A stretch of DNA of 64,000 bases from Harriotta raleighana (lineage: Eukaryota), in NCBI GenBank assembly GCA_050575255.1, contig JBNZDD010013610.1:1844366-1908365 (forward strand), read 5' to 3'. Below the pieces are notes generated by a model. The model was not told where the DNA came from. It saw only the letters and a program-made list of their open reading frames with translations, and did not search any database. Every line of letters starts with the position of its first letter. The stretch's first letter is position 1. Positions 1,365 to 31,745 of this stretch are shown here, piece after piece. A program made the translations under genes and the position numbers.

Positions 1365-1672
1365 TAATAATAATCCTTGCATTTGATATAGAGCTTTTCA
1401 CGTCTTCTAGACATCTCAAAGCGCTTCACAGAATATACTGTAAAGTGAATTGCCTGTATATATGTGGCCGAAATGTGGCAGCCAATTGCACACAGCAGTG
1501 TCCCACAAAATAGTTGTGGATTGAAATGACCAATTCATTATTTTTTTGAGGGATTATTGTCTGGCATGCGAAGTAAGGAAACTTGCCCATGGTTTCACCC
1601 TGCCTGGAATCAAATCCCAGGGCTCTCGCTTGTAAGGCAAGTGCTCTAACCACTGAGCTGCAGGACTCCACA
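1365..1672 (-). mobile_element. Full-length tRNA-derived SINE (Deu-domain-like body, L2-type tail, (ATT)n end)
   Basis: Reverse complement reads GCTCAGTGGTTAGAGCACTTGCCTTACAAGCGAG...GATTTGATTCC (A/B-box-like), then tgtgggacactgctgtgtgcaattggctgcc, then tgtgaagcgctttgagatgtc...atatcaaatgcaaggattattatta. The same sequence recurs at 15255, 20237, 27209 and 61353. Confidence 0.9.
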
Positions 1673-11048: not shown

Positions 11049-11156
11049 AAGAAGCCAGCGAAGATGTGGAGGGGCCAAGTGAGTCTAACCAGGAAACAGA
11101 AGATTCTACCAAAGACAAGGACAATGGAGGCGAGAAGGAGCCTAACAAAGAAACAG
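11049..11156 (+). CDS. ZFHX3: ZFHX3 internal coding exon (equivalent of human exon 5), 108 nt, phase 1/1: (E)EASEDVEGPSESNQETEDSTKDKDNGGEKEPNKET
   Basis: Pyrimidine-rich tract plus CAG acceptor ending at 11048; CAG|GTAAGA donor at 11157. The peptide resembles mammalian ZFHX3 'EEAIEDVEGPSE'. The phase joins correctly to the next exon. Confidence 0.88.
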
Positions 11157-12199
11157 GTAAGACAATAGGTATGATAGTTCCTTTCTGTGTCTCAACGGCT
11201 TGAGTTTACTTCAACGGATACTCCAGTAGTGGGTAACTGGCATTGCAGCTATGCCAACCCATTGTATAAATAGATTTCTTGCCTCCTTTATGGCATTGAT
11301 CAATACAGAGCTCGCAAGCATTAATTCCAGGCAAAATCTAAATTTGGTGCATGGAGCCTCGTTCTGTTTCTTCTGGTTGGGAGTCTTGCAGCAAGCATTT
11401 GGGATTTTCTGTTTTACATACAGAGCTCCTGCTCTCTTAAGATCAATAGCTTGATCAACATGGAGTTGCTCCTCAGATATCGAAAAGGGTCTGGATTTGT
11501 GTTGCCCTCCCAATTCATACGTATCCAGCTCTGAGAGTTCATGACCGAGACCGCGCTCATTTTGCTTAGTTTCGTATCAGATTATCTTCAGTGTGGAGGT
11601 AATTGTCACCAGTGGGTCTGTCCGATCAATGTAGATCTCTGACAGACCCAGTAAAGGCACATGTACTGCAACTTTAATTAAGCCTGTGCAATGCATGTGC
11701 CTTTACTGGGTCAAACTCTCTAGTTTGACCATCTCACTCAAATGGAGAAGAAGCCAAGACTTGGGTGTGAATGAATTGAGTGCTATAACATTAAAGACAC
11801 ATTCACGTGTATTTTATTGCTGCTTTCATATTGACTGGTGTAAATTATCACCCTCGGGGCCATATAATATCACCTGAAAAGACATCAGAGCCAGTTGCAG
11901 TCTAACAATGACAGATAGGCACAGTACAGCAACGTCAGAAAGTATAGGAAAGCAACCACATTAATTAAAATCATCAGTTATTCATGAAACATTTAAATAT
12001 TCATCATATTTAAAGAGGGTGCATATAAACTATTACTCTTTTTAAATGTGATAATCATGCAGTCTTTATTCAATAACACTTGCAGCTGTTGGAATCTTTC
12101 AGTCAGAAAGCATCTCTGTATTAGGGAAGAGGGAAAAATATAACCTTAAATAATCATCATGATCACAGGCTGGAAACACTAGTATTTGGGATACAATCC

Positions 12200-12436
12200 A
12201 ATTTACAAGTATAAAGCGCCTTTCATGTCAGGAGGATGTCTCAAAGTGCTTTACACTGCTGAATTGGCAAGCAAGCTGAGGGTGGGAGCGGAGAATCGGT
12301 GAGGGGATGGGTGGATGAGGGGGAAGAGGAAAGATGACTGTAAGTGGGGTCAAAGAGGTACATTTTGAGACATGCCTTGAAAGAGAAGAGGGAGAGAGCA
12401 AGTCTGATGGAGTCCAGGATGCAATTCTAGAGCAGG
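12200..12436 (-). mobile_element. L2-clade LINE 3' fragment
   Basis: Shared tail (gcgcctttcatgtcaggaggatgtctcaaagtgctttaca) joined to a purine-rich 3' region (gggtcaaagagg...ttgaaagagaagagg...ttctagagc) like those at 31895, 34021 and 60401. Confidence 0.6.
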
Positions 12437-13835
12437 CTAAAGATATTTTTTATGGATGCCAGTTTCCATTCATAATGCCAGTCAATTTATAAAAATAATT
12501 TTCCTGAAATTGGTCTAAAATATCACCATAGCATTGTCCATAATATAGTTTCTCCTCCAATGCCAAGCTTCTATTAAATTTTCACTTGTGTCTTGGGCTC
12601 ATTTTTTTGCATTGCGAAAAATTATTCTCTGATAGCACAATTTCCATAATAACTAGTTTTTCACACAAAATGCTTTGTGATTGCACAGCAATCCTTTCAA
12701 ATGAAAATTGCTTTATCAGACCATAGAAAATTCATAAAACCTTATTAATATGATACATTGCTTTAATGAAATGATTTATGAAGTTTTGTGGGCATTTAAA
12801 GATTAGTGAGAGTTAGTAAGAATCAAACTAAACAACACAAACTCAGCGCTAGTTTTTTTTCACCTGTGTGTTATTATCTTCCATGGAGCAATCTGCTGAA
12901 GGACTCAACATGGCTTCTACTTTAATTCCATTTACTCCAGAGCGCAGCTTAACAAAGGTCTTGATGGCCCTTTTCGTATTTCACATTGTTGAAGAAATTA
13001 CATTTTTTTTTGTTATTAATATTTTTAGCCCGGCTACCTCTGAATTTCTGTCCCTCGCATTCCACATGATTGCCTCCTCTGCGACTCATGAATAATATTA
13101 GTGTATCTGCGTATATTCCATTGTCCTGTGAAAAGATATCTGAAGTTAGCCGCAGAATGTCTGGTCCACCGTCGCCTCTGAGATGGGGCATTTTTTTTAA
13201 AATTTGAGGCGTCTTAAAAAAGAAAAAAAAACACACCGCGAGTACAAATGTATTTGCAATTATGTACAGGTGTTGTAACATAGGATTATATCCAGTAACA
13301 GCTGGGTCGACTGCATTACACGGCTGTAACAAAATTAAGCGGTTAAGATGACGGCATCAACTGCACTCTTTAAGATTGTGTTACAGCCTGTAATCATGCT
13401 GTTATTTTATAGAGTATACAGTTCACCGGGTATTTTTACCCCTACCAGTTGTTTCAGTGCTGTTAAAAAACCTACAGCTTATGGTTGACATTGTCATGCT
13501 TGTTGTTCCAAAGCACGGAGGATTCACACAAATTGAACAGGGTTTTGACCACACCATGAAACAGCTTCTAAACATGCAGTATCTATCACACATGATACTC
13601 TCAGAAAATGCGGACTCAGATTTGCACTTTTTACACTTATTTTTTTCAACAGCAAGATTTCGGTATTTCCACCTTGCCCCTCACAGACACGGGATACACT
13701 TACATCTGAAAGCCCCAAGGCACGGGTGTGAACATTCATTCCTATTTTACAAGCTGTGCAATTGAATGTTTGGAAGGAAAACTTTTGTTAATGTTTCCTT
13801 TCACACATGGACCGGGAATGGTAGAGGTTTTGGGA

Positions 13836-13897
13836 GCACCTTGGGACGTCCTCCCGATGTGAAAGGCGCTCTAGCAATGTAATTTTGTTGCTGTTGT
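13836..13897 (+). mobile_element. Older L2/SINE tail ending in (GTT)n-like sequence
   Basis: gcaccttgggacgtcctcccgatgtgaaaggcgctctagcaatgtaattttgttgctgttg. Confidence 0.7.
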
Positions 13898-14149
13898 TTT
13901 TTCATTTCTACACTCATGACTTAAAAACCCGATAACGGGCACTCCTTTTCCAGCAGTATTACCACTCCCCCCCTCCCTTAGTAAAACCTTGTCCTCCTTT
14001 TCTCACGCCCACCCCCACTCCCCCCTGCTGCCCCCCCACCCCCCCACCACACACACACAATAGTTGTCCAACATTTGGACATGGAGATATGGAGATAATA
14101 TAAAGCTTGCGGATTCACTATATACAAAATGCAAAATCCTGAAGTTATA

Positions 14150-14315
14150 GTAATAATACTACTGTAATAGCATTTGATGCATCCCACTTCACTTTGGGAG
14201 GATGTCTCAAAGTGCTTCACAGGACTTTACTGTACTGCATTTTGACTGTGTACAACAAAATACAACAAAATTACACTTGTATAGTGCCTTTCACGTCGGA
14301 AGAACATCACAAAGC
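14150..14315 (-). mobile_element. Two adjacent diverged L2/SINE tail fragments
   Basis: gggaggatgtctcaaagtgcttcacagg (to ~14222) and caacaaaattacacttgtatagtgcctttcacgtcggaag (~14262-14315). Confidence 0.6.
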
Positions 14316-14859
14316 ATGTATCTCGCAGACCCCAAATAACCATTGGTGCTGTGACCTCTGGATCCCTTTGCTCTTTTCGTTCTATTTAGTGACCAAAGTG
14401 CTGGTTTATAGCAGCAACACTGCACTTAGAGGCCTGCTGTGTGGACTTCAAGCAAAGCACATGTTTTATTGCTGCAATTTTTTACATGTATTTTTAAAAA
14501 AATATTTATATTGAGCCATAGCGCTAAACAATCCCACTACCTTGGTGACTTGCTGTTAAATGAGGTTTTGAGCCAGCTTATGAATTTAATGCACAGTCCC
14601 GGCTGTGGATTGAGAAGTCAATTCATTTAAACGGCAAAATGAATTTAAAGGAGCACAATAATTTAAAATTTGTCTTTTAAACGTGCGATACAAATAGACT
14701 GTCAAAGTAAGTGGCAAAATTATTTCCACCTGGAGTCGACCAAGTCACGAGTCCTCCCAGTCCCTCTCATTCAATCGTTGCCATGTTTTTTGTATCTTAT
14801 TGTTGACCTGTACATTTTCGCGTATATCTTTGCAAAGAAGTGTGAGAGAGCGAGAGGGC

Positions 14860-15078
14860 CTATGTTTACATAGAAGGTTGATAGAAAATGGAAAATGGCT
14901 TTGCGCCAATATAGTTGAAAGCGAAGTAACAACAGCCTTTAAACAGAATTTGGATAAATATTTGATAAATACGACTGAAGGGAGAGTGCAGGGGCATGGT
15001 GGTTTGAGTCGGTGGCAGAGATACAATGAACCAAATAACTAGTTTTGTGTGGTAAATATTGTTTGGTTTTATATGTTC
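14860..15078 (+). mobile_element. CR1-type LINE 3' fragment
   Basis: Translates ...IVESEVTTAFKQNLDKYL, resembling the CR1 ORF2 C-terminal 'VVEA..FK..LD..L' motif, followed by a degenerate CR1-like 3'UTR. Confidence 0.6.
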
Positions 15079-15179
15079 CTTTGCAGATGGCTTAATAATC
15101 CTATGACTGCACTGGCCACCTGTTAGATAATGTTATTGTCAATGCATCCAATTGTTACCAACAGAAAGCATGTGTGTGA

Positions 15180-15211
<32 letters not shown>

Positions 15212-15254
15212 ATTATATATATTTTTACTGTATAGATCATAATATATTATATAT

Positions 15255-15580
15255 TGTGGAATTCCCATAGCTCAGTGGTTAGAGCACTCGCTTACAAGCG
15301 TGAGACTTGTGTTCAAATCCAAGCAGATCAGGGTGAAACCTTGGGTAAGTTTCCTTACTCCACATGCCTAATAATAATTGTCCAAAAAAAAACAATAATA
15401 AAAATTGGTCATTTTCAATCCACGACTGTTTGTGGGACACTGCTGTGCGCAATTGGCTGCTGCGTTTCGCCCACAAATATACAGTCAATTCAATTTACAG
15501 TATATTCTGTGAAGCGTTTTGAGACGTCGATAAAATGTGAAAAAGCACTATATCAAATGCAAGGATTCTTCTTATTATAA
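15255..15580 (+). mobile_element. Full-length tRNA-derived SINE
   Basis: TAGCTCAGTGGTTAGAGC (A box), GTTCAAATCC (B box), Deu-like body, then tail to ...tgcaaggattcttcttattat. Confidence 0.92.
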
Positions 15581-16034
15581 CTATGTTGTACCTTGTTTTC
15601 ATCCTTCAGTTATGCTGAATTAACAAGTGCAGACCATCATGTTAATTTTTTGGCATATCAGTGTGGAAAATGTGAACAGTGCCCATTAACTAACCTATAA
15701 TTAGTGAAATATGTTTGAAGAAGTGAAAATAAAAATTCCTGTGGGATAGAAATGCCCCCCCCCCCAACCCCCCCAACCTGAAGTACTACAGTTTCCTGGC
15801 ACATTGAAAACACACTGCAGCCTTGTTCAATAGAGTTTCATGATGGTTTTTCCTCATGTTCTTGTAGTTGTCACGATTGGGAGAGTTGGTGGACCGAGTT
15901 ATGCATGTTGGTGGGTGAAACCCTTTTTACACTGTAATGTACTGGGCTGCAGTCACTGTACGTGGAAATATCATAGCGAGTAGTTTGCGAGAGAGGGAGA
16001 GAAAGAGCGAGCAAGCCAAGATTTTGGTCTAAAA

Positions 16035-16156
16035 TTTGTGCCCACTGAACACGCAGTCAATTCACTTAACAATATATTCTGTGAAGTGCTTTGAGATGTC
16101 TCAACGATGTGACAAGGCTCCATATCAAATGTAAGGATGATGATTAATATTATTAT
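16035..16156 (+). mobile_element. SINE 3' portion
   Basis: cagtcaattcacttaacaatatattctgtgaagtgctttgagatgtc...atatcaaatgtaaggatgatgatt. Confidence 0.8.
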
Positions 16157-16212
16157 AAGATGACTGTTTCACTCAAATCTGAGCATCCAAATGCCTACAA
16201 ATAACAATAATC

Positions 16213-16308
16213 ACAATAATCCTTGCATTTGATATATATCACCTCTTCGAGACATCTCAAAGCAATTCACGGAATATACTGTAAAATATATGATTGTATA
16301 TAAATGAG
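16213..16308 (-). mobile_element. SINE 3' portion, tail-to-tail with the copy at 16035
   Basis: aataatccttgcatttgatatat...gagacatctcaaagcaattcacggaatatactgtaaa. Confidence 0.8.
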
Positions 16309-17364
16309 AGGCCAGTTCATTTCAAGCGCTTTGAGATGTCCTCCTTCCTGACCTAGGTGCTGTGGAAAGCTAAATCGTATTAAATCGTACCTCCTCTGTG
16401 AATGGGTTGTGATGTGTGCCTGTATGTGTTGGGTGGGGGTGGGGTGAGGTGAGGAACGGCAGGAGAAAATATTTCTCTTCCATCCTTTCCTCAGTGGTAA
16501 ATTCATTATTTTTCTACAACTACGTTTTAAAAGGCACCCGGAACGTCCCCCGTCTTAAAATTCCATTAAAACCCAGCCGCAATGCTCGGAATACAAAAGG
16601 GAGAGAAAAATTCAATAAAATGCTCATTCCTACCTAGTAAGCGGGTATCAGAGATGCTGAGAAGACAATCAAGCCTGAAAATAAATGAGTGAACGATGGG
16701 AAAATGAAAGAAAACACCAGCAAAAGCAATGGCTGAGACCATCGATTATCTGGACTAATAGTGGAGGGTTTGTCACAATGAACTGGCTCGCAAAGTGTCT
16801 AATCATTGCTGTCCCTCCTCCTCCTCCTTGCACTAAAAATAAAATATTTATAAAACTATGGCCTAAAGGTTGGAGTTGCTCACCTAACGTTGTGCGATTA
16901 GTGAAATGGACCATTTCTGATTTGAGTCGGGAAGAGAGGAGAGAGAGCGAGAGAGGAGGGGAGGAATAGCTATTAAAGATGGTATTAATGGACTGCAAGC
17001 AAAGAAAAGTTGTCATGGAAGTGTGTTTATGGTGTATAGTGCTGGCAGGCATGATTTCGATAGGCTTTGACATGTTTAACATAAATGTATACAGCGGGGC
17101 TCCTACATTCATGAATAATTCCTTGAGGCCCCATGCCTCCCTAATTACTGAAATTGAAAAAATAGGTCATGCACATCTTTACTTGAACAGCAGTATTTTT
17201 TTCCTCCTCTGTGTGCTTGATGTGCGGAATACATCTGTGATACAATGAATTGGTTGGACAATTGCAGCTGCAAGGGCAAAGAGAATTTAAAGGAGAACAA
17301 AAAACCCACCAAAAAAAAGTTTTATTTGTTAATTTGTCTAGAATTCAAATGAATCTATATATAC

Positions 17365-17400
17365 TGTATATAGATATATATATATATATGTGTGTATATA

Positions 17401-17431
<31 letters not shown>

Positions 17432-17435
17432 TTAT
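17365..17435. repeat. (TA)n/(TG)n compound microsatellite
   Basis: Seen directly in the sequence. Confidence 0.85.
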
Positions 17436-17509
17436 ATCTACCTTTCCTGAGGTAGGAGGAAAATAAAAAAGGTATTGTATTCACTACCTCAGGCAATTTT
17501 TAAAAATAA

Positions 17510-17635
17510 ATAAATAATAAATCTTGCATTCGATACAACGCCTTTCATGTCTGTGGACATATCAACCCACATCACATAATTTGATATATTTTTCTAGGTA
17601 GACAGAGCCTTGGTTTATCGTTTTATCTGTAAGGA
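17510..17635 (-). mobile_element. Old DeuSINE-like remnant
   Basis: Tail atcttgcattcgatacaacgcctttcatgtc, plus gtagacagagccttggtttatcgttttatctg, which resembles the reverse complement of the recalled DeuSINE segment 'cggatgagacgttaaaccgaggccccgtctgc'. Confidence 0.5.
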
Positions 17636-20082
17636 GGAAAATGTTTTTTTTTAAAAGTTAGTTTCAATATCTCATAGAAACTCTGCAAATATTCTATTAA
17701 TTATTGAAGTTGCATGTGTAATCCTCAGAAGTATGATTTATATTTCTATAGACATGAAAATGACTGCCCACTTCAAACTGTAATACATTATAATATTTAT
17801 GTGTAATTAGTATAATAAAATGCAGGTTCATATAGTCCTTGCTGTGGCCTGACCTAGGTTTGGTTTAAAAAATTATTTAATCATTAGATCCATACAGCAT
17901 TAATAATTTATCTTAAAATGGTCTCTAAAGTCCAAATTAAATGTTAAACTAACTCACCAGCTACTGAGAATTTAATATCTTACTAGCCAAAGTTTCCATT
18001 AAATCAGTGCCAGCATCTTTTATTCCGTTTTACTTTGATGTGTCCTAAACTAGAAGTCTGCAAGAGAAAACATGAATTGGATGCCATCAACATTTACAGT
18101 CTCTTCCTTCTCACCCTGTTTAAGAGGGTGGGTTGGTCAAACTTGTGGATATCTCCACAGAGGCCATCAACTGTCATTAATTGCGCTCTTTGGCCAACCA
18201 GCCAGGAGGCATGCTGAAGGGTTGCAGGAAAGCACACATACACGCACACAAACACCGCCCTTTCTCTGGGCTGTTTGGCTTTCTCCACAATGACCTGGCT
18301 GAGACTGGCAAGCGCGTCCCTGGGGAAATGCTTTTAATGGGAATGTCCGCAGAAATCGGAATCGTTGAGAGCTAAATCGCCCCCGTGTTAGAGCCACCTC
18401 TGCATCTTGAAAACATCCCTGCAGTGCTCTTTGAAAACGAATAGAAATTGACAAGAACTTAGTAATAAGACTGGGGCATATGCAAGGGGATACAATGTAG
18501 GTACGAGTTTTTGAATCTTATTCATTGGTGCCTGTTTGATGACCTACCTAGGTTGCAAAATCAGAACTAATGAGTATTAAAGCTGTCTAATATACTGTAG
18601 CCTTCACATTCAATTAGATCAACTCAAAGGTATTTTTTTTACACAGAGCCATAAAGATAGAGCTGATTTCTGCAGGAAAAAATATCATTAGCCTAATTGA
18701 TGACGATACCTAGAATCTTTTTGAGATGGCTTGGAATAGTAGAGGGAAAATGTCATAAAGGTTGGATTATTTGAGTTTTTAACATCAGTGCTATAGATGA
18801 ACAAAAGGCTGCTGTCTTTGTAAGTGATGCTGAGTGCCTGGAGCGATGTTGAGTAGAATAATGAGTAACAATATATGTATTCTGGGTAAAAAAAAAAAAA
18901 TTTTTAACCACTTCACCCAAGTTAAGTCAGGAATGCATTATCTCTCAATAAGAAGATATCTGATTGACATTTTTTTCTCAAGGCTGGGCAGTGCACACTG
19001 ATTACCTAGTGCATTGCTCAGATCTACGTACACTACTTCTCTCTTAATTCTATTCAATCAGCAGGCAATGCCTTGGAAACCAACTGCACACAACACGAGA
19101 GGTCCAGTATGCTTGACCAAAAATTATTGATGAGATTCTGCCCGAAAATGTTCTGAAACCAGCTCTTCATTTATTTATCTTCTTGAAAAGCTCAACTTTA
19201 TGCAAGGAAAAAACATATAAACTGATGAGGAGCAGGTGTGTGTGTATGTGGGATGGGGGTGCACAACACTGCAAAGCTCTGTGTACAGAATACTGCACGT
19301 CCATCAAAACCCTGGCTTCAGATTGTCAGACATTTAAGGCAACCTATATGGTTCTTTATCAGTTCTCAAGAGGCAACAGAGGATGTGACTGTTTACAGAC
19401 ATAGATTATTCAACTGAGAATTCTGGCCTTTCCTCTCCCGCCTCCATCCTATGCTTCCATTCATTTCCCCTCCTATTGGTGAGAGATGTTGCCAGTCAGA
19501 GGAAAGGCTTGCAAATGATTTTGCTCCTAAGTGAAGGGGAGACACAAAGCCTTTATCTACAAACGATTTACCAGAACAGGGATAAGCAGAAAGTGGGGTC
19601 AATGATGAACCACAGGAGAGGCCTAATATTACTGGAGCTGTGATTTACCTTGTAAGCAAGTGTTTTTTTGTCTAGCTGTACTGTCAGAAGTTCTCTTACG
19701 TTAGTGTGCTTGTCGTCAGTTACTGTATGCATCGATGTGCAACTTTAACATAGATTTTGTTGAAACTCTTGAGATTCATCTTAGTTGTATTTAAATGGAG
19801 CTCAGATAAATACACCAGAGATGGTCTACACCATGTAAAAGTGTGCTTAAAAGCATACGTCTATTTTTATTCTTACATTAAGCTTAAGAGGACTATGAAG
19901 CACATCTCAAAATACTACCAGGTTTCAATGTTCCACTTCATTAAAAAGAATTGTTAACCCTCTCGCTTTCTCGTGCATTTTCTTGCTGTTGTCATGGTGC
20001 TTTGAAGAACATTTTGCAGGGATTCTTTTCTTCCTAATTTTTACACCTTTGAGAAAAATCAATCTTTTTAGAAATTCGCAGC

Positions 20083-20700
20083 ATGAAAGGAGGCCATTCA
20101 GCCCATCAAGTCTGCAATGGCTCTCAATGCAAGATGGACTTTCAATCCCACCACTGCCCTATCCTCATATCCCTTCAAGCATCTAACTTTCATATTCCTG
20201 TCTACTTTCCTCATGAAACCCATGATCGTAGTCCAGTAGAGCACTCACCTCTTAACAAGCGAGAGTTCAATTCCAGGCAGGACGAAACCTTGGGCAAGTT
20301 TCTTTACTCCACATGCCTAATAATAATCCCTCAAAAAAAATTGGTCACTTCAATCCACGACTATTTGTGCTCAATTAGCTGTCCCATTTCTCCCACATAA
20401 ATACTGTTAATTCACTTTACAGTATATTCTGTGAAGCACTTTCAGACATCTAGAAGATGTGAAAAGCACTGTATCAAATGCAAGGATTATTATTATTGAC
20501 TCGGCCTCTATCACCTACTTATCTTGGTAGGGCGTTCCACACCACAACAACATGTTTTTGTTTAAAAAAAATATCCCCTATGATCTTCTTTTACACTTCT
20601 TGTAGTTATTTTATATCTTTGTCCCCTAGTTATTGACTCCTCTATCAGTTGAAATTACTTCTCTCTCTTGACCCCGTCAAAACGGCACATCATTTTGTAG
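20083..20700 (-). mobile_element. CR1-type LINE 3' fragment interrupted by a SINE
   Basis: 'gaaaggaggccattcagcccatc' (CR1 3'UTR, minus strand) before the SINE, and 'gcgttccacaccac...tgtcccctagttattgactcc' after it. Confidence 0.55.
20237..20497 (+). mobile_element. Near full-length SINE with partly deleted head
   Basis: tagagcactcac...acaagcgagagttcaattccaggcagg...atcaaatgcaaggattattattatt. Confidence 0.88.
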
Positions 20701-21249
20701 GCCTTTTGTCGCAATGCACTGGGATGTGCAAGGAGCCATACAAATATAAATTTTGTATTGTATTGTGTATTGACCAATGCTCCCAGTGCCAGGATTTTCC
20801 AGATCCACGTGACCTGAGGTGGTCAGGTGGCAGTGCAGCAATCTTTATTTAATATTATCTGCTCATCATATTTCCATCCCACCTTTAAATTTATCCTTAC
20901 CTTGGAACGAATACCAGCAATGATGTTATCCGCAAGGCAGCAGTCGCCTGTCAACTGCGTAAAATAATACTCATTTTGTTTAATAGTGTCAAAGGTCATT
21001 TGATCCGCCAGAAGAACCAGGTAAACAGTGGATTTAAGTGGTATAGACAGGTGCATGATATAACGCCAAAGAGTTGTATTGGTGGATGGGAGGTGGGAGA
21101 AGGGGATAAACTTTCAAAGCCTGGCTGGATGGAATATGAGAGCAAGACAGTCTCTTTCTTTGGTTTCTCCCTTACCTAACTCTCAATTCTCAAACAGCAT
21201 TGATTCACTGATCAGAGCGTTGGCAAAAGATCACATCACCTTTACATTT

Positions 21250-21315
21250 AAGTGCTTTGAGACCTCTGGAAGACGTGAAAAGCACTATATCAAATGCAAG
21301 GATTATTATTATTAT
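21250..21315 (+). mobile_element. SINE 3' tail
   Basis: aagtgctttgagacctctggaagacgtgaaaagcactatatcaaatgcaaggattattattatt. Confidence 0.85.
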
Positions 21316-24300
21316 TTGTTTTCCATTCCTGCCCATTTCAGCTCCAGGCACAGAAATTTGAGGTGGGAGTTCACTGGCCAAACCCATCCTATTTTGGGCT
21401 TCATCGGAAACTGTCAACGGTATATCATCACTATTGCAATCCTGGGGTAGAGAGAAAGTTTTTTTTAAACAGCCACCATTAAGAATCATTTGAAATAAAA
21501 TGTAACATTTGTGTAAATAAATACAACGCATCTGGCCTATTGATATTGGAAGCAGTGATTAAAAGGTTAAAATGTGTTGCACAACAATAAAAATACTAAT
21601 TTTTATTATTAATACGTGAAAGAACGACAGGCAAATTTATAGCTGCAAAAGTTTATTCGTTTACGGTATTATACGATGGCCACATGATGCTGAAAACACG
21701 AGACTTACGGAAAATGGCATGAATTAATGATTACCTAATTGGCTCTTAGATTTTTTTTCACTGGGAGATGGAAGTTTATTTGATGTGCCTGTCAAAAGTG
21801 CTTTAGTTGACTGATGTTGATGCGAAAGAGAGAGAAATGGCCCTCCCCATGTTCCTGTGGGGTAATGTGTTGGGTAGGTTTCTTGTGTGGCTTTGGTGTA
21901 ATGTATGGTGCTAAAGCAGATTGTTGTATGTGTGGAGAATGTCGGGCCTGCGATGTAATCATTTTTGACGCATGATCTTTGATTGAGAATGACACTTTAA
22001 TGTCTGGAGCCTTGCTAGAGGTCAGATGTGGTTAACCTGGCTCTCTACCCTCCCTCTTCTCGCAGAAGCAATGTCATTTAATCAGCCTAAATTTAACTCT
22101 TCGTGCACTGTGCCCTGGCAGGCAGCGAGCTGGCTTACTTACGTTTTGCTTTTAGCCCTCACCACCCATACAATAAGAAAGAGACGCAAACAAACACTGG
22201 AACATTGACTACTCCACTGGCTCGTGGAACACGAGCCTTGTCTTGGGATGGTTGTTGAATGATAAGGGAAGAATGTTGGATCTCTCACCTCAACGAGCTT
22301 GGATGCCTTGATTAAAAAGCTAATAATACAAAACAGCTGCTAATCCCTTTGGGGTTTATTATAAAAGTATGCCAAATGTTTAAACAAACTCAATCACAGT
22401 GTCCCTGCCCCATGAAAGGGTTGGTGGGTGGGTGAGTGGGGGTTATTTTGGCCACTGGCCTGCATGTACGCGCACATGTCAAAATGTCAAGACATTATAG
22501 ACCGTCCACGAGGACTGAGAATTCCTCGGCCCAATCCTAGGCATTCACAGTCATTTAACATACGTCGGTAACCAGTAGTAGTTAATGGTAAAGTCAAGTC
22601 AAACCGTAATCTTTAAATTGTTTGTTTGTGCTGCTGCTGATGTGAAGCTGTAGAAGAAATTGCTGACATCACCAAGCTCCACAGGGAGAGTAGCACTTCA
22701 TAAATACAGGTTTTAAAAATGCCTGTTCGTTTGACTTTTTTCAGGGTGTGGGGAGGGATGGGGGTTGGGTCGGGGAAGGAAACATAGTTTTAGGTGGCCA
22801 CATATTATGGTATGGTTGATTGGTTTCAAGGCTTTGCCCATTGCAGCTGAGCAGAACTGGAGGGTCCTCCAAGGCTTCTCTCAGCTGGTCGGACATGCAG
22901 ACGCACAATGGGTTGAATGGAGTGCCTTAGTGACTTGGACCCACTACAAGTGAGACACATGCGTAACACTTGGCAGGCGGCTTTGGAAAGTTCGCCCTCA
23001 GCCAGAACTCAAACCCCGCAGCCACGAGAGGTGTGAAGCAAACATCATAGGCAGGCAACACTGCATGAATGCACTTGGATACATAATATAGGCTTTGCTT
23101 GAAACCCAGAACCAAAGAGCCTGCTTTTCAGTGCAAACCTGGAAGAATCTGCAGCAGTTTAGCAGAGATGGACAGTTTTACTCACAGCCACATTCCAGCA
23201 GCATATGTTTCCTTGACACTAAATTTTTGCAATAACCATTGTCCTGTGTGACCTGTTTCAGCCACATCTGGCACTCAGGCCTCAGCTCTCATTTATTATT
23301 TATTCACTTAAATGACAATCACTCAGCAAACTCCCAAAAAAGGGAGAGATTTGAAAGGATATGAGTGAAAGATTGCTTTGTGTTCACGGATCTTACTCTA
23401 AATCTGAAGTAGATCAAGTCTATACAGTAATGTATGGTCAATGACATTCATTTTCCTGGCAGAATAAGATCCAATGGCTCCCAGTATATGAATGTTGCAA
23501 TGCATGTTTAATCTGGACCCAATCCATCATTTGAAATATCCAGATGTCACACATTGCTTTTATCAAGCGAAAATGGATAATGATCATTAAGCAGAAGCGA
23601 GAGGAGAGAAATGCCATTTCACTTGTCCCTGCGAGAGGAGAACAATGGGACTGCGGTACTCCAGCTCAGCAGTCAACGGTAGTCAGGTTACCCTTGCAGA
23701 AGAGGTTATAGGTCAGTGTTCGCTTCTGGAAAGCTGTTCGAATCGATGTGACTGCCCACTGCATTCTCCCACAGACTTTCAACAGTTTCTGGAGCTTTGG
23801 GATTTCAGTGACTTTTAACAATTTGATGAATTTAAAAGAAAGTCGTTTGAAGCGCTGATAAAGGAATACGCGTCCTGAGGTGTCTTGAAATTCAATTCTC
23901 AGCATTCTGAGTATTCGGTCATCAAACTATTTTGAAGCCATAAATAATTTAGATTTCCTCGTTCTTTTATTCAATACCCACTATCAGTTCTGTGAAGTAT
24001 ATCGTCATTTTCTTCCCTAACCCCTCACCTCCCATCCCTCGGAAAGATGAAAATTACAGGAGGTATAAAAAGTTCAGATTAGCTTGATTGTTCTGTACAG
24101 CAGCTCTTTGTAATTGCAGTATACTGTTTGATGGAAATGAACGTAACAAGCCTGATTTCATGCAAAACCACAAGAACAAGTTGACTGTAAATATATTGCG
24201 ATCATTCAGATCTTCTCTCCACATTTAAATCCATGTGATTTGCAAGCATTTGGATTTTTGAGTATTGAAGAGATGAGGAATAAATGATGTTCGCCTTCAT

Positions 24301-24544
24301 TTGCTTGAAATTGGGCTTGTGAAAGTGTTCAGTTTGGACAACAATTATTGTATGTTACAAGATGAGCTCCAAGTGTCCCATCTTAACATGACAATAGCAT
24401 TGAGTTTCTATCTCTTTCCCCCACACACACATGCTCGCGGACACTCATACACAGAGACACAAGTAGTCTCTCATACCAGATTTATTTGCACATACCCCAT
24501 CATTTCTTTATAGTTTCATTAGTTTCATTATTATGATAAATAAG

Positions 24545-24641
24545 AATAATAATTCTTGCATTTGATATAGCTGCCTCAGCACATCGCTGAAACATCTCAA
24601 AGTCTTCACAGGATATTCTGTAAAATGAATTGACTGGATTT
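24545..24641 (-). mobile_element. SINE 3' portion
   Basis: aataataattcttgcatttgatatagc...catctcaaagtcttcacaggatattctgtaaaatgaattgact. Confidence 0.8.
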
Positions 24642-24754
24642 ATTAATAAATGTTGTTTCTTCAAAATATACAAAGTATACGGCATTTATCAAGAAAATGT
24701 TCACATTTATCAACACAAATCCATACTTGAGATGAAATTGTCAATCCACCCTTC

Positions 24755-24865
24755 TACAAATGTACAGTCAATTCACTTTACAGTATATTCTGTGAAGCGC
24801 TTTGGGATGTTGATAAGATGTGAAAAGCGCTATATCAAATGCAAGGATTATTATTATTATTATTA
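24755..24865 (+). mobile_element. SINE 3' portion
   Basis: acagtcaattcactttacagtatattctgtgaagcgctttggg...tgcaagg(att)n. Confidence 0.88.
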
Positions 24866-25369
24866 CAGATTCAGACGTGATCTCAATGGCAAGCCATGGG
24901 GTTTTAGCTGGTCAGACTCCAGCGGTTACCCCAATGTACACTCTGGAAATCCTAAGCCTTGGCTCTTTCCGACCTGTGCCTAATACTTTCCGGAATTAGG
25001 CAAGCAGAATACATCCCTCCAGAGAGAAAGTGTGCATTCCATTCCAATAAATATTTCTGTTCTAAGTGTAGATATGATGCATGAAATTCTGTTCAGTTTG
25101 GATGCTCTTAAGCATGGTGAATCGTTTATGAATGTGTCAGAAACCCGTCTAACCAAAAAAATTCAGACCATACGAAAGTATGGAATAAGTAGAGGGCGCT
25201 TGCTCATTAATTAGCTCTCTCCCTCCATAGTCCAGTCACAATTGATTCCGTCATTGACTTCACCCCTCCAACCTAGCTCCTGAGGAAAAGTTCTGCTCAG
25301 TTTCTCTCCAAGCATCAAAGGCAATTGAAGGAAAACTCCAGGATATTAGTAACTCAGCACTTCTCTACC

Positions 25370-25730
25370 ATTCAACCTTGACCCTCCCCTCTACAGGCAA
25401 CCTTGCCCTCCAAGCATATTCACCACTTAATGGGGGGAATAAAAATCTTTTAATTTCTAGTTCCACTTGAAATGCTTTTAATTTTAAACCTATGCCCTCC
25501 AGTTCTGTTATCATTGTCGGAGTCATATTCAAATTCTTACATCTGCCTCACATGCACCTCTTATCATTTGAATCATGTCTTTCTCCCTCCTCCCCTGTTA
25601 AATGTAATTAGAACCATTTCTGGTCAGTGAGCTTCCTCATCACGTAGAGTCCGAAATCCAGACTCATCCTTTTGTTCTTTCCTGGATCCTCTCAAAGCAA
25701 CAATTTCCTTTTAGAAAAATAAGATGCAGT
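25370..25730 (-). mobile_element. Highly diverged CR1-like fragment
   Basis: 'ttttaaacctatgccctccagttctg' and 'ctggatcctctcaaagcaacaatttcctttt' resemble the CR1 ORF2 3' region on the minus strand. Confidence 0.4.
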
Positions 25731-25876
25731 ATTTTGTTGTTGGTGGTGGTGGTTGGAGGGGTGGGGGAGGGGGGTTAGGAAGAGCAAAAGCAAATATTTA
25801 ATGAATTTTATGCTTCAGCAGACAGATAAGCTTTGAACCATTTGCCGATTTGTACTATCCTTCATACTTCATCCTT

Positions 25877-25944
25877 TAAATGCTTTGAGACATCTAGAAG
25901 ACATGAAAGGCACTATATCAAATGCAAGGATTATTATTATTATT
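25877..25944 (+). mobile_element. SINE 3' tail
   Basis: tgctttgagacatctagaagacatgaaaggcactatatcaaatgcaagg(att)n. Confidence 0.85.
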
Positions 25945-26887
25945 TTAACATTTATTATTACTTTGAATGTGACGAGACATTTCCTTCTCCCTCTGCTATT
26001 GACTCTATGATCAGCTAATAGTTGGTGTCCTACAGGATATGTATGTGTGCCAAGAGATTTTCCTTGCTGATACCACTTCAGATAGAGCAGTTCCTTACCT
26101 CCAGGGACACATCCATTGCAGGGGAGCCACCTCTAAATAGCAACTGGACTGTGAATAGATTGTAACTCTGCTCCTGGAATTATCCTTGATTTTGTGGTTG
26201 GGTGGGGGGAAATGAGAGAAAGTTTGGTTGTGAGCAGTTGAGCCAAATATAGTTGAAATTTTTGGCGAACGCAGCCATTGGAATTACAGTAGATGTGACA
26301 ATTTGTAAAACAGAAGCTATCACAAGGCTATATAGATGTGTATAAATATAAGACATCCCACTGTCAGAACAATCAACAGCAGTGGCTAGATTATGCCTGT
26401 GGCTGCTAACATTGCCTTCTAGCTATTTATGCTCAGGTCTAAACAGTTTCGGAGCTAAGAATATCAAGGACATTGTCCACAAAAAATAATTGCTAAATTC
26501 TTTTCATTCTGGAATTGAATAAATCCTTTGAAGCCCCAATCTGAATTCGAATGAATGGTTGAAATTGAAGGGCCTTTGTTAAAAGGTGTGGGCAGACCTC
26601 TGAAATGGTTTGCCCACACCTCAAGGCAAATGTACTTTATTGTTATTAACTGTTGAGGCGCGAGGCCAGAGAAGGAAATCAGATATGACATTGGGGTCAT
26701 TGACAGAGAGGGAGAGGGATACCTGATTACTTGTTTGTTTGTGTTTGGTAACTTGCAAAAAAATACCATTCAGCAAAGCAAAACTGTCAGTAAAACATTC
26801 TGTTTTTATTGTGTTCATTGTTTTACTTAACTCTGTGTAGATATATATATATATATTTTATATTGGTTATTTTATTATTATTTTATT

Positions 26888-26928
26888 TGAGTTCTGACGA
26901 AGGGTCGCGGACCCGAAACGTTGACTCG
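26888..26928 (+). ncRNA. Minimal type-I hammerhead ribozyme motif
   Basis: Stem I TGAGTT (26888-93) / GACTCG (26923-28); core CTGACGA (26894-900) plus an extra A; stem II GGGTC-GCG-GACCC (26902-14); GAAA (26915-18); loopless palindromic stem III AACGTT; predicted cleavage after GUU at 26922. Confidence 0.7.
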
Positions 26929-27022
26929 CTTTTCCTTTCTCCATAGATGCTGCCTATGCTAAGTATTTCCAGCTGTTTTTGTTTTTGTTTCAGATATCCA
27001 GCAACTGCAGTATTTTGCATTT
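26888..27022 (+). mobile_element. Penelope-like element terminal-repeat fragment
   Basis: 'ctgacgaagggtc...gacccgaaacgttgac...tctccatagatgctgcct...tgctaagtatttccagc...tttcagatatccagcaactgcagtattttgc' resembles an abundant chondrichthyan repeat as I recall it. It carries a hammerhead core, a known hallmark of Penelope-like elements. Confidence 0.65.
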
Positions 27023-27208
27023 TTTAAAAATATATTCGTTATACATTTCTAAAATATATTCTTTTATTTAGTACTAAAAACTTATTTTTAATTAGTAAAG
27101 GATTTGGCAAATGTGATTGTTGATATATTTCCATCTTGATTTAATTTCCCAGTGTTTTATCGTGGACCAGTTCGAGCTCAACTGTTTGTACCTACACGCC
27201 GGAGAATC

Positions 27209-27488
27209 GTGGAGCCCTGTAGCTCAGTTAGAGTATTCACCTTGCAAGTGAGAGACCTGGATTCAATTCCAGGCAGGGTGAAACCATGGGCAAGTTTCCT
27301 TTCTCCACAATCCTAATAATAATCCCTATAAAAAAAAATTGGTCACTCAATCCATGACTGTGGGACCTGGCTGCCGCGTTTCGCCCACAAATAGACAGTC
27401 AATTCACTTTACAATATATTGCGTGAAGCGCTTTGAGATGTCTAGAAGATGTAGAAAGTGCTATATCAAATGCAAGGATTATTATTAT
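27209..27488 (+). mobile_element. Full-length tRNA-derived SINE with small internal deletions
   Basis: gccctgtagctcagttagag...cctggattcaattccaggcagggtgaaacc...tgcaaggattattatt. Confidence 0.9.
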
Positions 27489-30400
27489 AATAGGAGGAGC
27501 AAAGAAAATACATGACAGTCGGGTTAAGCTGCATCTGTGTAATTTTTGCATAGAAACATTTTTAAGAGATGTTCAGAGAAGTAATTCAGACTCACTAAAA
27601 TGTTTAAAGTTTTAAGGGACCATTGTTCTCCTCTGAAAGAGTAAAAAGCATTAACAACAAGAGAAGCACATTGAACATTGTACAGAAGGTAGAACAGAAA
27701 GGTTTTTTATGTCATTACAGGAAAAAAAAATCAGCTTGTGGCATGGACACTATTGGTTTCAATAATGTGTTTTGGATGTGCAAAATTCGAAAGCTTACAA
27801 TTGAACTCATAAGAAAATTATATTTTTTGACAGAATCCTCCAGTAAAAGTGCATTAGCATTGTGCTTTGCTAAACAATTTGTGCAGAAGACATCTAATAA
27901 AAGTTTGCTGGGACACATTATTTGGAACAAGTATAACAATAACCAGTGGGAGAAAGAATAAAGTACCAGTACAGTACAAAAAGAGTTGAGGGAGACAGGC
28001 AAAATAATGAGAGAGCAAAAGAGTCCCGGCTGACACATACAGAAGCCCCCAAATCGAATTGATTTCTTTTTAAAATGTAAACCTAAATTAAATTCAAGCA
28101 TGAATGTTCCTCCCAGTCTTCTCAGGGCAAAATAATATTGCATCTTTCTGATTCCCCATCATTAAGGAGATGCTCCCTTTCTTTACTGCTTATCAGGATG
28201 GTTACCTAAATCAGTCACTTCCTACGAAAGGTTAGCAAAAATCTAAGTGGAGCTTGTGCCTACAAACAGCAGCCATCAGATTAGGTGCTTCTAACCCTAA
28301 ATATCATTATAATTGGGCTTATTTTACATATTTTAGTGTGTATCACCTGGATTTACCAGGGACCGGTTTTAAGCAACCACTCATAATTCTGGCCCAAAGG
28401 CTAATGCTTAATCCATCTTTTACCTCTGTTTCCATAATTGATTTTCACATAAATGCACAGGTTTAGAGGTTTAAAAGCAAATTATTTTAACTTTGTGATA
28501 CGTACAAGATGTATCTGTGTCTATCTGGCTGGCGATGAAAAATAGATCGCTATATGGTGCTTCTGTCTGTTAGTGCCTGAGGCATAGTTGGACCAGAAAT
28601 TGTCTCTCTGCCACTCCCTCTTTGGCTCACTGCTGTTACCCTTCTTCCCAAATGATTTAAGTTCAAGATAGTACTTCTGTACAATGCTTTGCTAAGTTAT
28701 TCTTTGCCCTCCAGACCTTCCATTCCTCTGACAAATGAACCCCTCCACGTCGTCTGGAGCCTTGCATCCCAAGTACAAGATGCTCAAGCACTTTATCTCT
28801 GCAAGCTGATTGACGTTTTTTCTAAATTGCTTTGTTCTTTCTCAAACTATTTTATTTGTCACTCTGCCACATGTCACAAGCACAATAAAAAGGTCTAAAA
28901 GTCTGAATGTGCCTAACTAAACCTTCATATATTTTCAGAGACTCTTGAGTATCGTTGGGTGGGGGGAGAGGGGGCTGCAAGGGTAAGAATGCTTTCCTTA
29001 GCTCTACAGTTTTCATGTCAAAGAAGCTCAGTAATTCCTCCTAACCACCTCTGACTGTTTCTCCATTTTTCGAGCTTGCAGAAACCCAGCCAATTAATTA
29101 TTTAAAGCTCAAAGGCACGGCAAATGTGACAAACGGAAATAAAAAAATGCCTTCTCTTGACCAGTCCATCTTTGCGTACTGCAGTTTCCTTGCCAGCAAT
29201 TTAGGCATTAAGTAATTTAACATTTTTTGCCTTCTGTGTTCCCACTGGCAAATTAACCATTGAGTCTTTGTCTTCCATTGCCTCGAGGCTCATTATACCC
29301 TCAACAATTATTCAGGAACTAGCTGTGTGATCATAGCCATGTTTATGAGGCCCTGTCATCGTATGACTGTAAAAAAAAATCTCCTTAACCCCCCACCATC
29401 TTCCCACTCTATTCTATTCCGCCCTTCATACACCCCCACTTTTGTATCTCCTCCCCCCTTTCAATTAATGTTTTCCAGACTAGGATTTTTCCATCAGAAA
29501 TATGGCTCCAGTAGACCAGACTGTTACTCATTTGCAGATCACATCAAACCACTTTACTTACCATTTATAACCAATTCCGAAGCCATAGGTTCATACAATA
29601 CTGATTGATTTGACAGATGGACATCACTAAATAGTCTAGCATAGTTGTGGTCATGTCATAGTTGTATTCCAAATCATTCCCTCTGCTCCAGCAGTGAGAC
29701 ATACAGCGTCATTTGTGCGCTTGGCTTGTTAATGTTCAAAAGAGATGAGAAAGGTGTTAAAGCAGAAATGACCAACACCTGCCTACTATGTGTTGTAACA
29801 TTAAAACTCTCATTGCCTGTGAAAGTCATGCAAGTGATAGATCAAAATATCTCTTTATCCTGTTAAATTAAATTTTGATTAATCTACATAGTACTGACTA
29901 GCTTGGTGTGTGCCTGTTGCACATTGTGCAGCTGTGTTTGCATTGCACTCTCACACTTATCACACAACAGAGCTTTTTGGACTCATAATTTGTTGTTGAT
30001 GATGCCTGTGGCAGTCTTGGACAATTGCCAGCGTCTTTCCATTTGCATTGTGTGGGCTGCTTTGCTATAAGACAGGGTGTTAAAGATGCCATTTACAATC
30101 TGCTAATTGGGACAAAAGACTAAGTTAACATATGCCACCGACAGCATCATATAATCTGTCCCTAATTGTTTTATATTTGCCTAACATCAGTGTTAGAGTT
30201 TAAATTATGCCAGTGTGAATGTAGGAAACAGCATGGACTGATTGTTTAGATGACAATTAACAGTGATGGAAATTAGAGTGTGAAAGTATCGCATTTAGTT
30301 TGAGGATGGGGGAGGGAACAGCGCTGTGTGCCAAGACTCTGCTTCTTCCGTTCATTAAGAACACTGTAAATAGCAATCCGCATCGGAAAGTTATCCAAAC

Positions 30401-31084
30401 TACAAAACCCATTCACAGATTCTAGCCAGATCCGCGTGTCAAAGGAAAAAGTTGAGAAACAGGAATATCTTGATTTAGAGATCAGGAATCAGAAACCTGG
30501 CCAATTGAGGGTGTTGAGATTCATTTCACTGCCTATCCTGAAGTAATAATAATACTAATAAATATAATAATAATAATATCCTCTAAAACAAGGCCATCAA
30601 ATCTAAGGAATTCAAATTTCTTGCACTTTATGGCTCAGTTTTGTACCAGATGGTTCACTTTAACTGCTGAACCATTTGGAGGGCCTGTCAGTCAGATTTA
30701 TAACTGCTGAGTGGTCAAAATATTTGGCCGGAGTAATACAGATTAATGTCAGCAATTGAGCATTTATCTAACGATACATTGAGACAACCAAAGCTCCTAT
30801 AAATACTGTATTGCTTTCAGATGGAACTATTATAGAACGCTGTGTCCAATAAACATCTCTGCCTCAGAATGGTTCACATGGAAAAGTAGCTGGCTACAAC
30901 TCGGAACATTTGCATTCTTATTATGCAATAAACTGGATCTTAAATTAAATAATCCCTGTCGTTTAACTGCAATCATAAAGACATTCCTGTATTATTAAAA
31001 TCTAAATTGTCTTTCGCAAATATTGTGTCCATCTTGGACTTTTCTTCAGTTACAATGCAACAACAAGCTGCAGTAATATTCAAA

Positions 31085-31200
31085 ACATTCAAACCACTAA
31101 TCCCCGGTATGATCCTAGCAAATTTCCTCTGCACTCTCTCTATTACCTTTGATGTCTCTCCTAAAGTGGAGTGGCCAAAAATGGGATACAATATTCCAAC
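31085..31200 (-). mobile_element. CR1 LINE ORF2 fragment
   Basis: Minus strand reads LEYC.../..KVIERVQRKFARIIPGISGL, matching the CR1 motif 'LEYCVQFW...LERVQRRFTRMIPG'. Confidence 0.8.
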
Positions 31201-31229
31201 TATATTTATTTATTAAATGCACCAGTAGA

Positions 31230-31297
31230 TCCTGTGAAGCGCTTTGAGATGGCTTCCGTTGTGAAAGGTGCTATACCAAATGTAAAGATTATTATTA
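31230..31297 (+). mobile_element. SINE/L2 3' tail
   Basis: ctgtgaagcgctttgagatgg...gtgaaaggtgctataccaaatgtaaagattattatta. Confidence 0.8.
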
Positions 31298-31617
31298 GCT
31301 TCTGAATGAGACAGAACCATTGCTGTTCCTGCTGCAGTTTTTTCATTCATCCATATAGTGGCTTGGCAACTTCCATTTTAAATATTGAAGGTTTCAACGG
31401 GTTTCAAAGATTAACATCTGAATTTGCATCGGATTTCAGCTCACCTTATGGTCAAATATTTAGTTTTCGCAGAATACTCAAAAGCTAATGTTTCTGAACT
31501 TGAGAGCCTTTTTTGTTTGCCAAAACCATTGGTTTTATAATTCAATCTACGTGGGGATTTGCATGGGGTTAAACAAAAAGATCAGGTTGAGTGTGTTTTT
31601 GTCTCCTCTCACTATAG

Positions 31618-31745
31618 TGTCTGCTGGTGACCGTGAGCCACAGGACTCCACCACGACTAAACGACCATCACTGCCTGGGAGCATGGACACCCCTCTTTCC
31701 TCCAAAAGACCAAGAACATCCGAAGAGACAAGCACAGATCAGCAG
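31618..31745 (+). CDS. ZFHX3: ZFHX3 internal coding exon (equivalent of exon 6), 128 nt, phase 1/0: (V)SAGDREPQDSTTTKRPSLPGSMDTPLSSKRPRTSEETSTDQQ
   Basis: Acceptor 'gtctcctctcactatag' ends at 31617; donor CAG|GTAGTT at 31746. The PLSSKRP motif matches ZFHX3 and the frame is consistent with both neighbours. Confidence 0.87.

What the first reader, a model, noticed from the sequence alone, without database searches (positions are those of the whole stretch)
26888..26928. Sense-strand minimal hammerhead ribozyme inside a ZFHX3 intron
Seen: TGAGTT-CTGACGA-A-GGGTC(GCG)GACCC-GAAA-CG-TT-GACTCG. This gives the complete CUGANGA/GAAA/UH core, a perfect 5-bp stem II and a 6-bp stem I with two G-U pairs. 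Stem III is the loopless palindrome AACGTT. Known: Penelope-like retroelements carry such minimal type-I hammerheads, whose palindromic stem III is thought to require dimerisation. Inference: it is on the transcribed strand of the 20-kb intron, so any activity would cut ZFHX3 pre-mRNA after 26922. Dependence on dimerisation would make cleavage require a second hammerhead-bearing RNA. Caveats: it is the only copy I found in the window, has an extra A after the core and a GUU triplet, so it may be inert. The class itself is already described.
Basis: partly seen in the sequence, partly recalled or inferred. Interest (0 to 1): 0.72.

Follow-up and report, generated by a model that had tools for sequence, protein, structure and literature searches.

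The report
Penelope retroelement stub with minimal hammerhead
The small self-cutting-RNA motif in this ZFHX3 intron is real, but it is the front end of a 140-base leftover of a Penelope-type jumping gene with thousands of copies in this genome, and as a lone copy it likely does not cut the gene's RNA.

Summary
The motif is present as described, on the sense strand of a 20,461-nt ZFHX3 intron, and is not chance. It is not unique: it starts a ~140-bp repeat, 729 genomic copies match its core and stem II exactly, and 5,254 match a 22-mer of the adjoining family tail. In 24 of 30 GIY-YIG-anchored loci the same fragment lies ~0.5 kb downstream, in a decayed RT + GIY-YIG Penelope-like element with a Neptune-type linker. 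The 'extra A' and GUU are family traits; the extra base is a published hallmark of Penelope minimal hammerheads (PMC4209133). No partner copy lies in 264 kb, and the monomer is predicted to bury its core. Intact cores occur in 1 of 24 and 1 of 25 unselected copies, so chance survival suffices. The insertion is shared with two related organisms; their core was not seen. Side result: many stubs begin exactly at the hammerhead's first base, 29-30 nt after a TATA-like box. The scan noted this class before on other DNA (122 findings). Ordinary.

The parts
26888..26928 (+). Minimal type-I hammerhead motif (stems I and II, full core, extra A after A9, loopless palindromic stem III; predicted cut 26922/26923)
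   Evidence: architecture as in PMC4209133
26890..27030 (+). 5'-truncated Penelope-like (Neptune-type) pLTR stub: hammerhead plus ~100 nt including the optional tail; 3' end blurred in a T/A run (27024-27030)
26888..26889 (+). Junction bases TG, not in the parent pLTR (which has CC). They give the two outer stem I pairs. Origin open: copied cap, fold-back, or target DNA
26894..26922 (+). Core plus stem II; this pattern has 729 exact matches genome-wide. In the monomer 26896-26899 are predicted to pair with 26919-26922 (inactive fold)
26841..26887 (.). AT-rich insertion site with a (TA)n run; target-site duplication not resolved
11157..31617 (+). Host intron of ZFHX3, 20,461 nt, GT..AG, phase 1 (inferred from DNA)
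11049..11156 (+). ZFHX3 exon upstream of the intron (5' bound approximate)
31618..31745 (+). ZFHX3 exon downstream of the intron

Best explanation
The motif is the minimal hammerhead at the 5' end of a ~140-bp stub of a decayed Penelope-like retrotransposon in a ZFHX3 intron, and this lone copy is likely inert. Shown: family membership, copy numbers, linkage to RT and GIY-YIG, no second hammerhead copy in 264 kb, and presence of the stub's 3' part at the same site in two related organisms. Inferred origin: the element's RT started inside the RNA, about 100 or 135 nt downstream of the hammerhead's first base, copied uncut RNA to its 5' end at AGTT, and the short cDNA was inserted at an AT-rich site. 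Inferred behaviour now: it is transcribed as part of ZFHX3 pre-mRNA, but stem III cannot form without a second hammerhead, the monomer is predicted to pair G5-A6-C7-G8 with C15.2-G16.2-U16.1-U17, and the element's protein is probably absent, so cleavage would be too rare to matter.
For: 2,420 first-look candidates, with the best hits at 82-89% identity over the same ~140 bp. 729 exact core+stem II matches, control 0. 5,254 exact matches of a family tail 22-mer, control 0. Same fragment downstream of the GIY-YIG motif in 24 of 30 loci and an inverted upstream copy in 7 of 30. Pfam RVT_1 (E 9e-5) and GIY-YIG (E 2e-4), both just under the curated cut-offs. All parent copies inspected are broken. 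3' ends are bimodal, +90-119 in 22 of 52 and +130-149 in 21 of 52, matching the two RT start sites and tail in PMC11167929. One hammerhead copy and one antisense tail piece without hammerhead in 264 kb. Core-burying pairs at P 0.86-0.99 in three context lengths; -15.2 versus -12.0 kcal/mol for the open hammerhead fold. Intact motif in 1 of 24 and 1 of 25 unselected copies, with CpG decay hitting G8, G12, C15.2 and G16.2. Literature: a single min-HHR showed no cleavage and dimers little (PMC4209133); the anole PLE hammerhead did not cleave without the element's protein and no RNA-seq ends were found at its cut site (PMC11167929).
Against: This copy keeps every core and stem II base, CpGs included, while CpG sites in 24 unselected copies are changed in 36 of 192 cells. 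The neutral chance of that for one copy with this much tail divergence is 0.1-7%, so it is among the best-kept few percent. The insertion is old (shared with organisms about 7.5% diverged in the flank). Its stem I is 6 bp against 4 bp in the parent. The core at the orthologous sites was not seen and no RNA or cleavage data were available. No open full-length parent was searched for exhaustively, so an active source of protein or partner RNA is not excluded. Folding energies do not model the dimer.
Confidence: 0.88

Rival explanations
1. Domesticated intronic ribozyme: the copy is kept by selection and cuts ZFHX3 pre-mRNA when it dimerises in trans with another hammerhead RNA or is helped by a protein, tuning ZFHX3 output or splicing.
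For: Sense orientation; complete core with all CpGs kept; 6-bp stem I; insertion shared with organisms B and C; hundreds of potential partner loci; precedent of conserved intronic hammerheads in amniotes (PMC6155905, passages).
Against: Core versus own tail conservation is not significant (p = 0.45); about 4% of unselected copies are intact anyway; no cis partner; predicted inactive monomer fold, and a partner helix of only -1.7 to -3.5 kcal/mol; the amniote precedents are canonical motifs with tertiary contacts, not loopless ones.
Confidence: 0.04
2. Incidental low-level cleavage without function: the intact copy is occasionally cut (partner RNA or chaperone), but the intron is still spliced or the loss is negligible, and nothing is selected.
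For: Core intact; low but detectable dimer activity reported for min-HHRs (PMC4209133; PMC6765202 passages).
Against: Same structural points as above; GUU is recalled as a slower triplet than GUC (recalled, not from a call).
Confidence: 0.07
3. The stub belongs to an independent non-autonomous element (retrozyme-like, replicating through circular RNA) and is not a truncated Penelope copy.
For: Fixed 5' and 3' ends; two sequence variants of the tail; PLE-derived retrozymes are reported in one chondrichthyan (bioRxiv 10.64898/2026.07.22.740005).
Against: The copy is single, not tandem; it starts 33 nt upstream of the cut site and not at it; both tail variants continue upstream into the parent pLTR in some copies.
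Confidence: 0.04

Closest known systems
Minimal hammerheads (min-HHR) in pLTRs of metazoan Penelope-like elements (Cervera and De la Pena 2014, PMC4209133; parts 1-2 of 4 read)
   Same: [quoted passage not shown]
   Different: Helix II is 5 bp (7-8 in the Schistosoma family); GUU triplet; no cartilaginous fish is named in the parts read (supplements not seen).
Poseidon PLE of Anolis, PAc (Frangieh et al. 2024, PMC11167929; parts 1-2 of 4 read)
   Same: Hammerhead about 100 nt upstream of the ends of genomic copies, two 3' end classes separated by a tail, AT-rich targets.
   Different: The parent here has a Cys-rich RT-EN linker (Neptune-type). Its ORF start relative to the hammerhead was not established, and protein assistance was not tested.
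Neptune-clade PLEs (diagnostics from PMC8557442 and PMC3846280, passages)
   Same: RT followed by a C-terminal GIY-YIG, CCHH residues, C-x4-C-x2-C linker, inverted 5' pLTR pieces, 30-40-bp tail, TATA/Inr-like motifs in the pLTR.
   Different: No tree against reference Neptune proteins was built and no Repbase comparison was possible, so the clade rests on the linker.
Conserved intronic hammerheads of amniotes, RECK and others (PMC6155905, passages)
   Same: Type I hammerhead in the intron of a host gene.
   Different: Those are canonical, conserved motifs; this is a loopless member of a high-copy decaying repeat with no shown conservation of the core.
Animal non-LTR retrozymes (PMC7229834 passages; bioRxiv 10.64898/2026.07.22.740005, parts 1-2 of 5)
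   Same: Short PLE-related repeat with a type I hammerhead, often in introns (about 43% of copies in Xenopus).
   Different: Not tandem here; the unit does not run from cut site to cut site.

Membership tests
PLE minimal hammerhead | Complete CUGANGA / GAAA / UH core in type I order | tested here: met
PLE minimal hammerhead | One nucleotide between 9 and 10.1, and G10.1-C11.1 | tested here: met
   A26901; G26902-C26914; unchanged A in 24 of 24 copies
PLE minimal hammerhead | Loopless palindromic stem III | tested here: met
   26917-26922
PLE minimal hammerhead | Located in the pLTR of an RT + GIY-YIG element | tested here: met
   24 of 30 loci; Pfam
PLE minimal hammerhead | Self-cleavage as a dimer or with protein help | not testable with these tools
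   bench assay needed
Penelope-like element | RT followed by C-terminal GIY-YIG | tested here: met
   L095:4881-5780 RVT_1 E 9e-5; L097 GIY-YIG E 2e-4, both below cut-off, in broken copies
Penelope-like element | 5' truncation, inverted 5' pLTR pieces, optional 30-40-bp tail | tested here: met
   7 of 30 inverted; bimodal 3' ends
Penelope-like element | Full-length copy with 5' pLTR and an intact ORF | tested here: inconclusive
   longest linked pieces about 2.4 kb, all broken, among 10 long loci; search not exhaustive
Neptune clade | CX2-5CxxC linker between RT and EN, and CCHH motif | tested here: met
   read in L097, L100 and others; diagnostic from PMC8557442
Neptune clade | RT phylogeny groups with Neptune | not tested
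   no named reference set in hand
Non-LTR retrozyme | Tandem hammerhead-bearing units | tested here: not met
   single copy
Domesticated intronic hammerhead | Core conserved at orthologous sites beyond neutral expectation | tested here: inconclusive
   insertion shared with organisms B and C, core not seen; within-copy test p = 0.45
Domesticated intronic hammerhead | Stable stem III and loop-loop contacts allowing monomer cleavage | tested here: not met
   no stem III; A15.1-U16.1 pair probability 0.0

The most novel reading that the evidence does not exclude
An old Penelope stub has been kept as a conditional ribozyme in ZFHX3: silent alone because its core is folded away, it cuts the nascent pre-mRNA when Penelope RNA or protein is present, linking retroelement activity to the dose of a developmental regulator.
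Probability: 0.04. Interest if true: 0.65.

Novelty: new member of a known kind. Interest (0 to 1): 0.13.

Why it matters
As it stands it matters little: it is one of hundreds of intact and thousands of decayed Penelope hammerhead stubs. The more useful by-product concerns the open question of what PLE hammerheads do. Roughly 40% of copies with an intact 5' arm appear to begin at the hammerhead's first base, 29-30 nt after a TATA-like box, with an excess of G at the junction. If that base is the transcription start, the ribozyme sits at the very 5' end of the element's RNA, cutting would remove the cap with 33 nt, and the stubs were copied from uncut RNA. That is testable by 5' RACE or CAGE. 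Earlier notes of this scan reach similar readings, and one full-text search for it found no paper.

Tried and rejected
Rfam found no hammerhead. Three pairs of nearby same-strand hammerheads did not turn out to be two-pLTR full-length elements: one had an assembly gap with duplicated sequence, two were separate insertions. No intact parent among 10 long loci. PDB and the protein atlas could not separate ZFHX3 from ZFHX4; one search did. Sequencing runs: no RNA holder listed, which is no evidence on expression. The state of the core at the orthologous sites stays open: one search showed no piece across it, and for organism D no piece bridging stub and flank. Target-site duplication of the window copy: two imperfect AT-rich candidates, unresolved. 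Local CpG protection: o/e 0.56 around the copy versus 0.39 for the intron, within the intron's range 0.15-0.63, so not conclusive. Depletion of the family at ZFHX3 is not claimed, as no unbiased genome density was measured. A spliced 5' exon as the source of the junction TG: no shared upstream sequence among 28 copies. Lunse et al. 2017 was not held; only its title and a review's summary were seen. The search of earlier findings by sequence returned nothing.

Full report
Observation. All core positions are present, stem II has 5 Watson-Crick pairs, stem I has 6 pairs with two G-U, and 26917-26922 is a loopless palindrome. My descriptor finds it as the single hit on both strands; 150 shuffled windows gave 0.007 loose and 0 strict hits per window. 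Rfam reports only two tRNA-like SINE heads at gathering level and no hammerhead at E<=10 near the site. The gene is ZFHX3 on the + strand: residues 1450-1815 of the large exon are 72-78% identical to the top 23 hits (22 named ZFHX3 by their first source name, one a hypothetical protein named ZFHX3 by UniRef) and 53-55% to the best ZFHX4 rows. The host intron is 11157-31617 (inferred from DNA).

What it is. A search of the own genome with 281 bases gave 2,420 candidates; the 39 best other places cover the same ~140 bp at 82-89% identity. The core-plus-stem-II pattern has 729 exact matches (351 and 378 by strand, control 0), and a 22-mer of the family tail has 5,254 (control 0). One locus showed a GIY-YIG fragment upstream of the motif. 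Using that peptide, 24 of 30 fetched loci (of 150 listed) carry the same hammerhead fragment 286-642 bases downstream on the same strand, and 7 of 30 have an inverted copy upstream. Longer copies reach about 2.4 kb and hold RT and GIY-YIG sequence in broken frames. The closest named homologues of the RT are from rays and sharks (53-60%), so the host is likely a cartilaginous fish. A C-x4-C-x2-C linker before the endonuclease points to the Neptune clade (diagnostic from PMC8557442 and PMC3846280, passages); no tree was built. The window copy is therefore a 5'-truncated pLTR stub. The extra A is unchanged in 24 of 24 copies and is listed as a conserved feature in PMC4209133 (parts 1-2 of 4 read). 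All 100 listed matches have the GUU triplet although the pattern allowed A, C or T.

How the stub likely arose. 3' ends of 52 of 57 copies with enough sequence fall in two groups, +90-119 (22) and +130-149 (21) from the A of AGTT. This fits the two internal RT start sites and optional tail described for the anole element (PMC11167929, parts 1-2 of 4 read); the window copy has the tail. 5' ends cluster too. Of 1,972 matches to the intact 5' arm, 546 have a non-C base before AGTT and 1,426 have the parent's C. In samples, 23 of 28 non-C copies and 7 of 26 C copies show 0-3 bases of upstream parent sequence (two contig-end rows dropped; one of the 7, L205, is a divergent pLTR, so 6). Weighted, about 40% start at AGTT. 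The parent has TTAAAA 29-30 bases upstream in 24 of 26 copies, and CCAGTT resembles an initiator (recalled consensus). Among the first 100 listed non-C matches I counted G 53, A 27, T 20 (p = 2e-9 against an assumed 25%), and T precedes G in 13 of 16 distinct G copies. Inference: RT ran off the 5' end of uncut RNA. The G may be a copied cap, as known for LINE-1 (PMC4859970, passages), or come from fold-back on stem I, which predicts TG and would also explain the inverted pieces, or from target microhomology. These were not separated. The samples are the first places listed, rich in small contigs, and hold some assembly duplicates. PMC3846280 (passages) argues that an antisense template is also possible.

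Would it cut ZFHX3 RNA? Probably not. The published single min-HHR did not cleave and dimers did so weakly (PMC4209133); the anole motif needed the element's protein, and no RNA-seq ends were found at its site (PMC11167929). In 264 kb, from 200 kb upstream to the window's end and including the large coding exon at -129.7 kb, a tail profile finds only this copy and an antisense piece without hammerhead at -49.9 kb; non-coding 5' exons could lie further out. The monomer is predicted to pair 26896-26899 with 26919-26922 at P 0.86-0.99 in three context lengths, 3.2 kcal/mol below the open fold, while the palindromic partner helix is worth -1.7 to -3.5 kcal/mol. These are predictions and do not model the dimer.

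Is the copy conserved? Against the majority of the 29 best hits it has 3 substitutions in 40 hammerhead bases, none in the core or stem II, and 9 substitutions plus a 3-base gap in 92 tail bases; Fisher p = 0.45. Each of its 12 substitutions is shared by 2-15 of about 42 other copies, and its nearest neighbour differs by 9%. Intact motifs occur in 1 of 24 endonuclease-anchored and 1 of 25 tail-anchored copies and in 9 of 57 copies chosen for an intact 5' arm; CpG decay hits G8, G12, C15.2 and G16.2, as expected for unselected DNA. Against my reading: the per-copy neutral chance of staying intact is only 0.1-7%, and the insertion is old. Contigs from organisms B and C bridge the stub's 3' part and the unique flank (X5 record 26, 26957-27255; X10 record 4, 26980-27195), with about 7.5% flank divergence (62 of 828 and 26 of 346 letters); organism D (88 of 581) showed no bridging piece (4 of 18 listed runs laid). 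The core at those sites was not seen. With 729 intact copies, finding one sense-oriented in some intron is expected.

Comparison and novelty. It is a member of the described class of Penelope minimal hammerheads on all sequence criteria tested; cleavage is untested. It fails the tandem criterion for retrozymes and the monomer-fold criterion for the amniote intronic hammerheads. Searches for sharks with Penelope and hammerhead and for Neptune in cartilaginous fish found no paper on this family; a preprint reports retrozymes in one chondrichthyan (bioRxiv 10.64898/2026.07.22.740005, parts 1-2 of 5 and passages; supplements closed). Supplements of PMC4209133 were not seen and may list such motifs. 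The search for a start site at the hammerhead returned 0 papers at 4 of 5 terms. The scan's own notes hold 122 similar findings in at least 22 genomes; these are leads, not support. Other papers seen as passages only: PMC6155905, PMC7229834, PMC2377424, PMC6765202.

Verdict. Real motif, known kind, likely inert passenger (0.88). Interest 0.13. The boldest open reading, a conditional ribozyme domesticated in ZFHX3, has about 4% probability.

Noticed in passing
Parent pLTR, e.g. L061:4490-4530; window 26889-26890: TATA-like TTAAAA 29-30 nt upstream of the hammerhead's first base in 24 of 26 copies; many stubs start exactly there, with G in 53 of 100 listed non-C junctions. Suggests the transcription start is the first base of stem I.
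   Followed up: partly
window 26929-26946 and 26975-26993 (+): Two pyrimidine tracts ending in AG inside the stub resemble 3' splice sites in the sense orientation of ZFHX3; possible cryptic acceptors, no RNA data.
   Followed up: no
window 26896-26899 with 26919-26922: The family sequence itself allows the core to pair with the stem III palindrome and cut site, a possible built-in off state of the monomer; it persists more weakly with U at position 7.
   Followed up: partly
L094:4181, L095:4417, L096:3452: Three long parent copies lose mutual similarity at nearly the same point about 2.4 kb upstream of the tail; either a shared deletion derivative or a preferred truncation point.
   Followed up: no
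window 27209-27490 (+) and 1595-1667 (-): tRNA-derived SINE copies (Rfam tRNA 40 and 34 bits); 15 head matches in 264 kb.
   Followed up: no
window 49936-50300: Long CAG/CAA glutamine tract in the last ZFHX3 exon with an apparent internal duplication; may be real or an assembly artefact.
   Followed up: no
G000:C13610, about 49.9 kb upstream of the window (-): Antisense fragment of the same element's tail without hammerhead, inside the ZFHX3 locus.
   Followed up: yes
L161, L165, L176, L179, L202, L204: Solo stubs flanked by 8-14-bp target-site duplications abutting the 5' junction.
   Followed up: partly
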